Positions 27,545-29,899 of a DNA stretch of 64,000 bases are shown here, piece after piece. Every line of letters begins with the position of its first letter. Position 1 is the first letter of the stretch. Under the pieces are notes generated by a model. The model made no database searches and had not been told where the DNA came from. It saw only the letters and a program-made list of their open reading frames with translations. Source of the stretch: a virus (lineage: Duplodnaviria > Caudoviricetes); the IMG/VR virus record IMGVR_UViG_3300020036_004254; one strand, 5' to 3'. Both the position numbers and the translations under genes were made by a program.

Positions 27545-29899
27545 GTGATTAACTTTACAACCCTACGTTTCAAAAACTTTCTGTCGTCGGGGAATGTATT
27601 TACGGAAATCAAGTTCGATGAACACCCCACCAATCTTGTGGTGGGGAAGAACGGCGCAGGAAAATCCACTATGTTGGATGCCTTGTGTTTCGTTCTGTTT
27701 GGCAAGCCATTTCGCAACATCAATAAGCCACAGTTAGTGAACAGCGTCAACCAAAAGGCGTGTGTGGTTGAAATTGAGTTTGTGGTGGGTAAGCGGCAAT
27801 ACAAGATTGTGCGTGGGATTAAGCCCAATCTCTTTGAAATCTATCAAGATGGCGTTCTGATTGACCAAGATGCCGCGTCAAAGGATTACCAGAAGCACCT
27901 AGAAGAGAACATTCTAAAGTTGAATTTCAAGTCCTTTACCCAGATTGTGATTTTGGGTGTGGCTTCGTTTACGCCGTTCATGGAACTTTCGGCGGCTTCC
28001 CGCCGAGAAATCATTGAAGATATTCTGGATATTAGAATCTTCACGGTGATGAACAATCTCTTGAAAGAGAAGGTGTCGGACCTCAAGGATGCTTTGAATA
28101 CCCTTGAGGGTGACTTGAACATAAATATAGCCAAGACGAAGCTTCAAGACAACTACATCAAGTCCCTGCAAGCGGATAGGCAACAGCGCATTGATGAGTT
28201 GAATCAGAAGATTGCCGAGGCCGAACATGACATCAGAGAAAAAGACGTTCATATCAAATCTTTTGCGGAAGATAGAGACAGGTTATTGGATATTCTTGGT
28301 GATACTTCTGGTCTGCGATTGGAAATTCAGGAAATTCATGCGTCGATTCGAGACTTGGAGAAAGAGAAGAAGTCGCTAACATCCTTAGCGGAGCTTTCCA
28401 AGAATCATACCCTCTGTCCGGTGTGTGTAATTCATCCGGACTTGTTAGAAGTCAATGCCAAAATTCGGGATTTGAACAAGGAGTACAATGCAATTCCAAC
28501 CTTGACAGAGAAGTACATCAACTGTCCGGTGTGTTCTACTTTGCCAGCGATTTTGGACTTGGATGCAACAATTCGAGATTTGACGAGAAAAGAAACGTCT
28601 GCGAATCAGGCAATGGCTCTTCCAGAGGAATATACTGCTTGTAAAAGCTGTTCGGTTCTCCCTGAAATACTAGAGATTACCGCAACAATTCGGGACTTGG
28701 AGAAAGACAAGATAAACATCACGAAGACCTGTGGGTTTTATACGGACCATACCACGTGCCCGACCTGTCAACAAGACATCAGTGAAGAGTTGCGTCAAGA
28801 CCATGTTGCGGAGTCAAACAAAAAGATTGATGATATCACCACCACGATAGTTGAGCTTGTTGCTCGGCGTAAAACGTTGGGGGAAACGGCGCATACCGAA
28901 CATCAGGCGCGAGTCAAGCGTGAATATGATGAAACGGTCTTGGGGCTGACTGAGGCAGTTGTGGAACGAGAAAAGTTGGGTTCGGTATCACACCAACTAC
29001 ATGTCAATTCGGTTGAACAACATCGCGCCGATATCACGCAAATAATTCAGGTGTGTAATACGGAGCGTGACAAGATTGGTGAGAATCTCCACCGAATTCA
29101 TACAGAGGAAGTAACCCTACGTCACACCACTATTGATACGTCATTAGAAGACCTGACCACCAAACTTCAAGAGAAGAAAGTGGTGTCGGATAAGGTAGAG
29201 AAACAGGAGGGAGAGATTGCACTCTTGACTAACAAGATTTCCTCGCAGAATAGTGAAAAGCTTGGGCTTCAGCGGTTTATGGAAACTCTCGTCAAAGAGA
29301 AGTCTGAGTTGGAGAAAAAGGGAGGCAACATTGAAGAGGAGAAGGCCAAGCTTCGTACTATGGCATCTGAAGTGTTGACCATGACTTCAAAGAAGGCTGA
29401 ACTAAAGGAAGAGAAAGATTATCATGATGTGGCGGTGACCTTGTTGAAGGATGGTGGTGTTAAGACTCGTATCATCAAGCAATACCTTCCAGCCATCAAT
29501 CAGATGGTAAACAAGTATCTTCACGCTATGGATTTCTTTGTATCCTTTGAGTTGAACGAACAGTTCAGCGAGACTATCAAATCTCGCCACCGGGACGAGT
29601 TCAGTTACGAGAGCTTCAGTCAGGGTGAGAAACAGCGTATTGACTTGGCCTTGGTCTTCACATGGCGCACCATTGCAAAGATGAAGAATAGTACCAGCAC
29701 CAACCTTTTGATTTTGGACGAGGTGTTCGACAGCAGTTTGGATGCAGATGGAACGGATTACGTAGTAAATCTTCTGAAGGTCATTGGGGAACAGACCAAT
29801 GTATGGGTTATCTCACACAAGCCTGATATCATGGCGGATAAGTTTAGTAACGTACTACACTTCGTGAAAAAGAACAATTTCTCTGTTTTGGAGCGATAA
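27545..29899 (+). CDS. 46: Recombination ATPase gp46 (Rad50/SbcC-like) with expanded coiled coil
   Basis: GKNGAGKST, FSQGEKQRIDLAL, LILDEVFDSSLD, ISH; 784 aa; GTG start. Confidence 0.95.
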   Translation: MINFTTLRFKNFLSSGNVFTEIKFDEHPTNLVVGKNGAGKSTMLDALCFVLFGKPFRNINKPQLVNSVNQKACVVEIEFVVGKRQYKIVRGIKPNLFEIYQDGVLIDQDAASKDYQKHLEENILKLNFKSFTQIVILGVASFTPFMELSAASRREIIEDILDIRIFTVMNNLLKEKVSDLKDALNTLEGDLNINIAKTKLQDNYIKSLQADRQQRIDELNQKIAEAEHDIREKDVHIKSFAEDRDRLLDILGDTSGLRLEIQEIHASIRDLEKEKKSLTSLAELSKNHTLCPVCVIHPDLLEVNAKIRDLNKEYNAIPTLTEKYINCPVCSTLPAILDLDATIRDLTRKETSANQAMALPEEYTACKSCSVLPEILEITATIRDLEKDKINITKTCGFYTDHTTCPTCQQDISEELRQDHVAESNKKIDDITTTIVELVARRKTLGETAHTEHQARVKREYDETVLGLTEAVVEREKLGSVSHQLHVNSVEQHRADITQIIQVCNTERDKIGENLHRIHTEEVTLRHTTIDTSLEDLTTKLQEKKVVSDKVEKQEGEIALLTNKISSQNSEKLGLQRFMETLVKEKSELEKKGGNIEEEKAKLRTMASEVLTMTSKKAELKEEKDYHDVAVTLLKDGGVKTRIIKQYLPAINQMVNKYLHAMDFFVSFELNEQFSETIKSRHRDEFSYESFSQGEKQRIDLALVFTWRTIAKMKNSTSTNLLILDEVFDSSLDADGTDYVVNLLKVIGEQTNVWVISHKPDIMADKFSNVLHFVKKNNFSVLER

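What the first reader, a model, noticed from the sequence alone, without database searches (positions are those of the whole stretch)
28320..29110. Rad50/gp46 with a mirror-expanded coiled coil: three extra CxxC matched by three HxxH (putative zinc staples)
Seen: the rising arm has four units sharing (L/I)xAxIRDL, ending in CPVC (28415), CPVC (28523), CKSC (28640) and CPTC (28757), spaced 36, 39 and 39 aa. After the apical CPTC the returning arm has three R-x-x-(L/I)-G-x3-HxxH units: HTEH (28892), HQLH (28991) and HRIH (29090), spaced exactly 33 aa. Known: Rad50/SbcC/gp46 form an antiparallel coiled coil with one apical CxxC hook; T4 gp46 is about 560 aa versus 784 here. Inference: each extra CxxC meets an HxxH across the coil (CKSC-HTEH, CPVC-HQLH, CPVC-HRIH), giving three intramolecular C2H2 zinc clasps that extend the arm in modules. 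This needs matched duplication of two separate gene segments; I know of no description of it.
Basis: partly seen in the sequence, partly recalled or inferred. Interest (0 to 1): 0.8.

Follow-up and report, generated by a model that had tools for sequence, protein, structure and literature searches.

The report
Phage Rad50 arm with Cys/His rungs
An uncultured T4-like phage encodes a Rad50/gp46 repair ATPase whose coiled-coil arm is nearly doubled by three repeat modules, each with a CxxC on the way up and an HxxH on the way down, which probably form metal (zinc) cross-links not described for this protein family.

Summary
The 784-aa gp46/Rad50 orthologue (27545-29899, +) has CxxC at aa 291, 327, 366 and 405 and HxxH at aa 450, 483 and 516, at the stated coordinates. 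This did not arise in 200,000 composition-preserving shuffles.

About 270 relatives are almost all ~570 aa, with one CxxC and no arm HxxH. Searches of 5.8 billion and 1.84 billion proteins, IMG/VR and JGI metagenomes found only one other carrier. It is a 718-aa protein with 3 CxxC and 2 HxxH, so CxxC = HxxH + 1 holds again. It differs from the window's protein by one rising (36 aa) and one returning (33 aa) unit.

Rising units are tandem copies of the pre-hook segment. Returning units are 33-aa repeats.

AlphaFold2 on the hairpin gives an antiparallel coiled coil. The rising arm breaks at each CxxC, the return arm is one helix carrying all HxxH, and the distances from the apex match. Co-folding the two arms with Zn gave only weak support.

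No coordinates were available and no metal was measured, so Cys-His contact is inferred. Intramolecular Cys2His2 clasps are the best reading (~0.55). I class it as a new variant of a known kind. Other first readers of this scan noted the same stretch, but none found it on other DNA.

The parts
26489..27544 (+). gp47/Mre11/SbcD-like nuclease gene (351 aa), the partner subunit, abutting gp46
   Evidence: Pfam Metallophos E=2.4e-13 and Metallophos_2 E=7.8e-11. The relative L001 has the same gene order.
27545..29899 (+). gp46/Rad50/SbcC-like ATPase gene, 784 aa, GTG start
   Evidence: Pfam SMC_N 2.7e-19 and AAA_23 1.1e-17. phrog_77 'SbcC-like subunit' 4.2e-173. Solved Rad50 heads 6.7e-12.
27545..28036 (+). 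N-terminal ATPase lobe (aa 1-164) with Walker A GKNGAGKST (aa 34-42)
   Evidence: Translation. Invariant columns G34, G37, K40, S41 in 88 sequences. AF2 pLDDT 89-98.
28316..28768 (+). Four tandem rising-arm units (aa 258-408). Each has an amphipathic helix with (I/L)RDL, then a loop ending in CxxC. The last unit is the ancestral pre-hook segment with the apical hook CPTC.
   Evidence: Unit alignment. DNA repeat family D1, 61-76% identity. Insertion relative to 571-aa P0005.
28415..28426 (+). Extra CxxC 1 (CPVC, aa 291-294), proposed partner HRIH 516
   Evidence: Lies in the loop between predicted helices 255-284 and 298-316.
28523..28534 (+). Extra CxxC 2 (CPVC, aa 327-330), proposed partner HQLH 483
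   Evidence: Lies in the loop between predicted helices 298-316 and 334-357.
28640..28651 (+). Extra CxxC 3 (CKSC, aa 366-369), proposed partner HTEH 450
   Evidence: Lies in the loop between predicted helices 334-357 and 373-401.
28757..28768 (+). Apical zinc hook CPTC (aa 405-408)
   Evidence: C405 and C408 are invariant in 88 homologues. Turn with a beta-bridge at the hairpin apex in both AF2 models. It is the only CxxC with a weak Rad50_zn_hook match, E=0.03.
28805..29101 (+). Three 33-aa return-arm units (aa 421-519), each ending R-x-x-(L/I)-G-x3-HxxH
   Evidence: In-register similarity z=2.8-3.9 with the His excluded. Lies inside one continuous predicted helix, 414-599.
28892..28903 (+). 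HxxH 1 (HTEH, aa 450-453)
28991..29002 (+). HxxH 2 (HQLH, aa 483-486)
29090..29101 (+). HxxH 3 (HRIH, aa 516-519)
29444..29896 (+). C-terminal ATPase lobe (aa 634-784): signature SFSQGEKQR, Walker B LLILDE, H-loop SH
   Evidence: Translation. Invariant S692, G694, D725, E726 and nearly invariant S757, H758. AF2 pLDDT 82-96.

Best explanation
This is the Rad50 subunit (gp46) of the Mre11-Rad50 (gp47-gp46) recombination nuclease of an uncultured T4-like myovirus of about 173 kb, found in wastewater-type metagenomes. Its ATPase head and apical CxxC hook are canonical. Beneath the ancestral ~36-aa apical hairpin, three modules have been inserted into both strands of the antiparallel coiled coil. 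On the rising strand there are three tandem copies (36, 39 and 39 aa) of the pre-hook segment, and each keeps its CxxC. On the returning strand there are three 33-aa repeats, each ending in HxxH. Inferred mechanism: the rising strand is four short helices joined by CxxC-bearing loops (knuckles), laid against one long return helix. Each knuckle sits opposite one HxxH, and the two pairs of ligands bind one metal ion, most likely Zn(II), as Cys2His2. The pairs would be 366/369 with 450/453, 327/330 with 483/486, and 291/294 with 516/519. These rungs would hold the interrupted rising strand in register on the return helix. They would allow the arm to grow in modules from about 19 nm to about 33 nm, while the apical Cys4 hook still joins two protomers. 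Shown: the sequence anatomy, its rarity, the copy-number match in the one relative, the duplication origin, and the predicted hairpin with mirrored positions. Inferred: Cys-His contact, the metal and its identity, cis pairing, and the stiffening role.
For: (1) The motifs are exact and non-random. (2) Family membership and a complete ATPase are established. (3) Among 266 homologues, 230 of the 269 stored proteins counted have 1 CxxC and 0 HxxH. Only the window's protein (4 and 3) and P0004 (3 and 2) have more than one arm CxxC. 80 IMG/VR loci add none. (4) P0004 is 718 aa, which equals 784 - 36 - 33 + 3 C-terminal residues, so one unit was gained or lost on each arm together. (5) The two proteins are only 34% identical across aa 255-545, yet all 10 alignable ligand residues are conserved. 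Near-identical variants differ only at aa 325, 440 and 495. (6) Residue counts from the apex are mirrored: 36 vs 42, 75 vs 75 and 111 vs 108 in P0001, and 36 vs 42 and 75 vs 75 in P0004. (7) AF2 on aa 200-600 (mean pLDDT 87.3) gives rising helices 255-284, 298-316, 334-357 and 373-401, with a CxxC in each of the three loops, and a single return helix 414-599. With 1.5 A per helical residue, Cys369 lies about 44-53 A from the apical helix end and His450/453 lie 54-58 A from it (my arithmetic). (8) The closest ~571-aa relatives have no HxxH after the hook, so the His pairs arose together with the duplicated Cys pairs. (9) At least one His of each pair lies within about 60 degrees of the local hydrophobic face, and the I and L of IRDL fall on a 3-4 spaced hydrophobic stripe. 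(10) Co-fold of aa 255-401 against aa 412-545 with 3 Zn (ESMFold2) gave 'weak support'. The score was 0.55 and the best of 3 controls was 0.00. The mark was reached by 58 of 80 solved complexes and 2 of 110 mismatches, but at 0.60 or under by only 7 of those 80 and by both mismatches that passed. The runs agree in at least 97% of contacts and the partner pLDDT is at least 87. As two halves of one Rad50 arm, this pair may pass by likeness to solved structures. (11) The hairpin model matches solved antiparallel coiled coils, including the MukB elbow (E=4.8e-4), Rad50 and Lamassu.
Against: No coordinates were returned, so no Cys-His distance or Zn geometry was seen. The full-length AF2 run with 88 sequences was unsure of exactly these modules (pLDDT 37-65, with disorder at 316-335 and 471-489). 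The confident hairpin run used a 2-row alignment, where idealised helices score high easily, and its five models ranged from 63 to 87. His-x2-His is not the usual spacing of structural zinc sites, which is H-x3-5-H in classical fingers (my knowledge). The copy-number rule rests on n=2 related proteins, and arm-length matching alone would force paired indels. Seven homologues of 647-708 aa extend the arm with no Cys or His. Unit-by-unit similarity between the return repeats of the two proteins does not follow the order expected from the proposed pairing. The co-fold verdict was only weak, and no contacts were released.
Confidence: 0.55

Rival explanations
1. The same ligands bind metal between protomers rather than within one chain. 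In the zipped-rod state of the Rad50 dimer, each extra CxxC could meet its twin (extra Cys4 hooks) and each HxxH its twin (His4). Alternatively, a CxxC of one chain could meet the HxxH of the other. Either way the two arms would be laddered together.
For: The extra CxxC are copies of a motif whose known job is inter-chain Cys4 binding (Rad50 hook literature, e.g. PMC5093744 and PMC6969161 listed). The predicted stoichiometry of 3.5 metals per chain is the same as for the cis model, so nothing found here excludes it.
Against: After each extra CxxC the sequence (xxxPxxL...IRDL) is unlike the hook, and only the apical CxxC gives even a weak Rad50_zn_hook match. The His pairs appear only together with extra Cys pairs and at mirrored heights. 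This is most simply explained if they complete the same site. The two strands of one arm are in closer contact than equivalent residues of two arms (inference from known Rad50/SbcC structures).
Confidence: 0.15
2. The extra CxxC are passive leftovers of duplicating the hook segment, and the HxxH serve something else or nothing. The modules are then ordinary coiled-coil extensions without metal.
For: Arm extensions without Cys or His occur repeatedly in this family: 647-708 aa in P0028, P0125, P0220, P0250, P0169, P0124 and P0262. Duplication of the pre-hook segment automatically copies CxxC. The full-length AF2 model is not confident here.
Against: All Cys and His pairs are kept in two lineages that are only 34% identical in this region. 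The DNA units have diverged to 61-76%, which is ample time to lose unused Cys. The His pairs are new, repeated at exact 33-aa spacing with a conserved R..(L/I)G context, and absent from 1-CxxC relatives.
Confidence: 0.15
3. The Cys2His2 pairs bind a different cofactor or act as a switch. One option is a Rieske-like [2Fe-2S], with two Cys on one iron and two His on the other. Others are Co or Ni, or a redox-sensitive dithiol, making arm rigidity respond to metal or redox state.
For: The ligand set of two Cys from one segment and two His from another is compatible with such centres (my knowledge). The phage occurs in wastewater, digester and activated-sludge samples.
Against: No tool result points to Fe-S. 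The CxxC descend from a zinc hook. The Rieske motifs CxH...CxxH are absent.
Confidence: 0.05

Closest known systems
Bacteriophage T4 gp46 (Rad50) and the ~570-aa gp46 of T4-like cyanomyoviruses (e.g. S-RIM2, P-SSM7, S-CAM22)
   Same: Same gene order gp47-gp46. Same ATPase motifs and a single apical CP(T/V)C hook at the tip of an antiparallel coiled coil. Heads are 40-44% identical to cultured cyanophage proteins and up to 71% identical to metagenomic 571-aa forms.
   Different: About 213 extra residues in the arm: 114 rising and 99 returning, organised as three modules. There are three extra CxxC and three HxxH, which are absent from all of these relatives.
Rad50 zinc hook (Pfam PF04423; P. 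furiosus and human hook structures)
   Same: The CPxC motif preceded by an aromatic or His residue is the sequence that was duplicated. The proposed metal is the same, a tetrahedral Zn(II).
   Different: The hook is one apical site that joins two chains as Cys4. The proposed rungs are sub-apical, three per chain, Cys2His2 and within one chain. The extra units do not match PF04423.
Classical C2H2 zinc finger
   Same: The ligand set is two Cys from a knuckle-like loop plus two His from a helix.
   Different: It is not a beta-beta-alpha domain. The ligand pairs are 84, 156 and 225 residues apart in sequence, and the His spacing is x2 rather than x3-5. There is no Pfam zinc-finger match above threshold.
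Interruptions of SMC-type arms (MukB/cohesin elbow, SMC joint)
   Same: One strand of the antiparallel coiled coil is broken while the arm continues. The best Foldseek hit of the hairpin model is the MukB elbow (6h2x, E=4.8e-4).
   Different: Those breaks are hinges for folding and carry no metal ligands. Here the breaks are periodic and each carries a CxxC facing an HxxH.
P0004, the 718-aa gp46 on NCBI contig JBCAWJ010001779 (GCA_047514455.1) and a Logan contig of SRR26965755
   Same: Same module type and same synteny (gp23, UvsY, UvsW, gp47, gp46, PDF, ClpP-like, clamp-loader genes). Overall identity is 60%.
   Different: It has two modules instead of three (3 CxxC and 2 HxxH). The second return unit lacks the Gly of the R..LG context.

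Membership tests
Rad50/SbcC/gp46 ATPase | N-terminal Walker A P-loop | tested here: met
   GKNGAGKST at aa 34-42. G34, G37, K40 and S41 are invariant in 88 homologues.
Rad50/SbcC/gp46 ATPase | C-terminal lobe with ABC signature (S-x-G-E), Walker B (hhhhDE) and H-loop | tested here: met
   SFSQGEKQR at aa 690-698, LLILDE at 721-726, SH at 757-758. These columns are invariant or nearly invariant.
Rad50/SbcC/gp46 ATPase | Significant profile match to family models and to solved Rad50 heads | tested here: met
   SMC_N 69.9 bits (cut-off 40) and AAA_23 65.8 bits (cut-off 27). phrog_77 E=4.2e-173. 5f3w/3aux Rad50 E about 7e-12 and SbcC 6s6v E=1.6e-8.
Rad50/SbcC/gp46 ATPase | Heads separated by an antiparallel coiled coil with an apical CxxC | tested here: met
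   AF2 models give a helical hairpin with a turn at 402-413. C405 and C408 are invariant. Foldseek hits are antiparallel coiled coils, including Rad50 7zr1. This is prediction only.
Rad50/SbcC/gp46 ATPase | Adjacent Mre11/SbcD/gp47 phosphoesterase gene | tested here: met
   26489-27544 matches Metallophos, E=2.4e-13.
Rad50 zinc hook (PF04423), applied to the three extra CxxC | Profile match, apical position and hook-like flanks | tested here: not met
   Units around aa 291, 327 and 366 give no PF04423 match even at E<=10. The apical unit gives 14.6 bits (E=0.03), which is also below the cut-off of 24.3. The extra CxxC lie 36-111 residues below the apex.
Classical C2H2 zinc finger | Contiguous C-x2-4-C-x12-H-x3-5-H in a beta-beta-alpha fold | tested here: not met
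   The ligand pairs are 84-225 residues apart and the His spacing is x2. No finger family reaches threshold.
Structural Cys2His2 metal site (function, not family) | Four ligands within bonding distance of one metal; metal present | not testable with these tools
   The structure tools returned no coordinates. The co-fold with Zn released no contacts.

The most novel reading that the evidence does not exclude
A Rad50 arm built as a metal-runged ladder. Three intramolecular Cys2His2 sites, each made by a duplicated hook knuckle and a newly evolved HxxH on the return helix, let a phage lengthen its Mre11-Rad50 arm in discrete modules (2 in one lineage, 3 in another). This would make arm integrity depend on metal. 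It would be the first intramolecular metal cross-bracing described in any SMC/Rad50-type coiled coil.
Probability: 0.5. Interest if true: 0.7.

Novelty: new variant of a known kind. Interest (0 to 1): 0.55.

Why it matters
How the long Rad50/SMC arms transmit information between hook and head, and why their length and stiffness matter, are still debated. A natural Rad50 whose arm is lengthened by countable modules would help here. Each module may be locked by a removable metal site. That would give a handle for testing arm length and rigidity separately, using chelators or point mutants of single rungs. It would also show a hook motif being re-used, by tandem duplication plus a matching His pair on the other strand, to make a new kind of site. 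For annotation, it shows that extra CxxC in a Rad50 arm need not be extra hooks. The caveat is that only two uncultured phage lineages carry it, and metal binding is so far a prediction.

Tried and rejected
(1) Measuring Cys-His distances was not possible. Structure prediction returns only pLDDT and DSSP, and no model file appears in /data.
(2) The co-fold with 3 Zn gave 'weak support', and contacts were withheld. It speaks only to arm pairing, not to metal ligation.
(3) The full-length AF2 run with 88 rows had low confidence in the modules, so it settles nothing there.
(4) The search for further carriers found none. It covered a mid-region search of 5.8 billion proteins (which found only the query and even missed P0004), a profile search with 'longer' lengths (only P0003 and P0004 plus one marginal 573-aa hit), an IMG/VR scan, a JGI metagenome scan (only the window's own phage), and the best 150 hits of the exhaustive 1.84-billion search. 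No one-module (2 CxxC + 1 HxxH) or four-module form was found.
(5) Orthology of individual return units between P0001 and P0004 is ambiguous. Two MAFFT runs align them differently, and in-register scores do not follow the expected order.
(6) A simple heptad assignment around HxxH gave no clean a/d register. The helical-wheel result is only compatible with the model, not diagnostic.
(7) The ESM Atlas feature search of aa 255-545 returned only unnamed clusters and Rad50_zn_hook clusters.
(8) Literature searches found no paper on multiple CxxC or Cys/His pairs in Rad50/SbcC arms. The library is incomplete, so this is weak evidence of novelty.
(9) Laying contigs of four runs showed no joints or indels, so no copy-number variants of the modules. 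Fragments in an RNA library (X3) do not prove transcription.
(10) An assembly artefact, heme CxxCH motifs and Rieske CxH/CxxH motifs were considered and rejected from the sequence.
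Full report
**The gene.** The finding lies inside one ORF, 27545-29899 on the + strand (GTG start, 784 aa, P0001). It directly follows a 351-aa calcineurin-like phosphoesterase (26489-27544; Pfam Metallophos E=2.4e-13). It is followed by a peptide deformylase, a ClpP-like protein and a DUF3310 protein.

P0001 matches SMC_N (69.9 bits) and AAA_23 (65.8 bits) above Pfam's cut-offs. 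It also matches phrog_77 'SbcC-like subunit of palindrome specific endonuclease' at E=4.2e-173 and the heads of solved Rad50 and SbcC structures. Walker A, the ABC signature, Walker B and the H-loop are present and fall on invariant columns of an 88-sequence alignment. It is therefore the gp46/Rad50 partner of a gp47/Mre11 nuclease in a T4-like replication and recombination module.

Cultured relatives are Synechococcus and Prochlorococcus myoviruses, at only 40-44% protein identity and about 65% DNA identity over small parts. The protein sits on contigs of up to 172.7 kb. Near-identical contigs occur in wastewater, anaerobic-digester and activated-sludge metagenomes from four studies.

**The observation.**
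- CPVC at aa 291, CPVC at 327, CKSC at 366 and CPTC at 405, spaced 36, 39 and 39 aa.
- HTEH at aa 450, HQLH at 483 and HRIH at 516, spaced exactly 33 aa, each within R-x-x-(L/I)-G-x3-HxxH.
- One of the four IRDL units begins with V instead of L/I.

In 200,000 shuffles of the arm, none had both >=4 CxxC and >=3 HxxH. The arms of 266 homologues carry 0.11 HxxH on average.

**Where the extra sequence came from.** Relatives are almost uniformly 567-575 aa. Aligned with a 571-aa form whose head is about 70% identical (P0005), P0001 has about 114 extra residues before the hook and about 99 after it.

The rising insert consists of tandem copies of the ancestral pre-hook segment. That segment is an amphipathic helix ending (I/L)RDLxKE, a linker with an aromatic or His residue, then C-P/K-x-C. 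There are four such units in a row, and the last is the real hook unit. Their DNA is 61-76% identical over 49 nt, so the duplications are old and not an assembly error.

The return insert is three 33-aa units. They are significantly similar in register even when the His are left out (z=2.8-3.9). Because the rising insert is a tandem repeat, its insertion point can be placed about 36 aa before the hook. This mirrors the return insert, which begins about 36 aa after it.

**How rare it is, and the copy-number test.** Four surveys were run.
- A word-indexed search of 5.8 billion proteins, with the whole protein, the middle alone, and a profile of the middle.
- An exhaustive HMMER search of 1.84 billion representatives.
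- A scan of IMG/VR.
- A scan of JGI metagenomes.

Counting motifs in all retrieved proteins and loci, only two entities have more than one arm CxxC. One is the window's phage, seen as four near-identical 784-aa variants whose differences avoid all Cys and His. The other is P0004, a 718-aa protein from an NCBI metagenome-assembled contig and a Logan contig, with the same gene order.

P0004 has CxxC at 291, 330 and 369, and HxxH at 414 and 447. So CxxC = HxxH + 1 holds again. The length difference of 66 aa equals one 36-aa rising unit plus one 33-aa return unit, minus three C-terminal residues. The two proteins are only 34% identical across this region, yet all ten alignable ligand residues are conserved. 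Distances from the apex are mirrored in both proteins: 36/42, 75/75 and 111/108 residues.

Seven other homologues of 647-708 aa lengthen the arm with no added Cys or His. Arm length is therefore evolvable in this family, and the Cys/His modules are one particular solution to lengthening it.

**Structure prediction.** The full-length AF2 model (88 rows, mean pLDDT 82.6) is confident for the head and the base of the arm. It is not confident for the modules (pLDDT 37-65).

A run on aa 200-600 with only P0001 and P0004 in the alignment gave mean pLDDT 87.3, with the five models ranging from 63 to 87. In it the rising strand forms helices 255-284, 298-316, 334-357 and 373-401. The three loops between them each hold a CxxC. 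The hook turn is at 402-413, and the return strand is one helix, 414-599, containing all three HxxH.

Foldseek places this model among antiparallel coiled-coil hairpins, including the MukB elbow, Rad50, Lamassu, SMC and chemoreceptors.

Taking 1.5 A per helical residue, Cys369 lies about 44-53 A from the apical end of the arm, and His450 and His453 lie about 54 and 58 A from it. The next two modules need their 11-13 loop residues to span only about 14-21 A, which is feasible. This is my arithmetic, not a measured distance.

The rising units (36-39 aa) are longer than the return units (33 aa). This fits a broken strand with loops running against a continuous helix. Helical-wheel analysis puts at least one His of each pair within about 60 degrees of the hydrophobic face.

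**Co-folding.** The two arms were given as separate chains (aa 255-401 against aa 412-545) with 3 Zn to ESMFold2. The verdict was 'weak support'.
- The score was 0.55, and the best of 3 controls was 0.00.
- The mark was reached by 58 of 80 solved complexes and 2 of 110 mismatched pairs.
- At 0.60 or under it was reached by only 7 of those 80, and by both mismatches that passed.
- The runs agree in at least 97% of contacts, and the partner pLDDT is at least 87.
- No contacts were released.

Two halves of one Rad50 arm may pass by likeness to solved structures. This result supports arm pairing at most, not metal ligation.

**Interpretation.** Each duplicated knuckle lost its inter-chain role, and only the apical CxxC keeps even a weak hook-profile match. 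Each is completed by a His pair that evolved on the facing helix, giving three (in P0004 two) intramolecular Cys2His2 sites, most likely Zn. These would peg the interrupted rising strand to the return helix and let the arm grow from about 19 to about 33 nm.

I put this at about 0.55. The rivals are:
- trans or twin pairing in the zipped dimer (0.15), which predicts the same metal count;
- non-functional leftovers of duplication (0.15), disfavoured by conservation at 34% identity and by the new, regularly spaced His pairs;
- another cofactor or a redox switch (0.05).

The remainder is unassigned.

**Comparison and novelty.** Membership of Rad50/SbcC/gp46 is met on every feature tested. The extra CxxC are not zinc hooks by position or profile. 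The sites are not classical C2H2 fingers: the ligand pairs are 84-225 residues apart and the His spacing is x2.

Literature searches of the held library found nothing on multiple CxxC or Cys/His pairs in Rad50 or SbcC arms.

I class it as a new variant of a known kind. It is real and rare, with a coherent but untested mechanism. Interest is 0.55.

Noticed in passing
proteins P0028 (704 aa), P0125 (704), P0220 (708), P0250 (690), P0169 (669), P0124 (648), P0262 (647): Several gp46 homologues from other metagenomic phages have arms 75-140 aa longer than the ~570-aa norm but keep a single CxxC and add no His pairs. Arm length has therefore expanded independently several times in this family.
   Followed up: partly
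window:29901-31445: Directly downstream of gp46 lie a peptide deformylase (Pfam E=1.1e-33), a ClpP-like protease (E=8.2e-11; its listed TTG start overlaps the deformylase end) and a DUF3310 protein. The relative L001 has deformylase and ClpP-like genes in the same place.
   Followed up: partly
window:27545-29899 (runs X1-X4): Near-identical contigs of this gene occur in wastewater, anaerobic-digester and activated-sludge metagenomes of four studies, and as fragments in a wastewater metatranscriptomic library. The nearest cultured relatives, however, are marine Synechococcus and Prochlorococcus myoviruses at only 40-44% identity. The host is unknown.
   Followed up: partly
The word-indexed search restricted to aa 240-540 missed P0004, which the whole-protein search found at 60% identity. 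'Only itself' answers from region searches of repeat-rich coiled coils are therefore unreliable.
   Followed up: yes
window:27544-27545: The gp47 stop codon ends at 27544 and the gp46 GTG start is at 27545. The two genes abut with no spacer, which suggests translational coupling of the two subunits. In L001 they overlap by one base.
   Followed up: no
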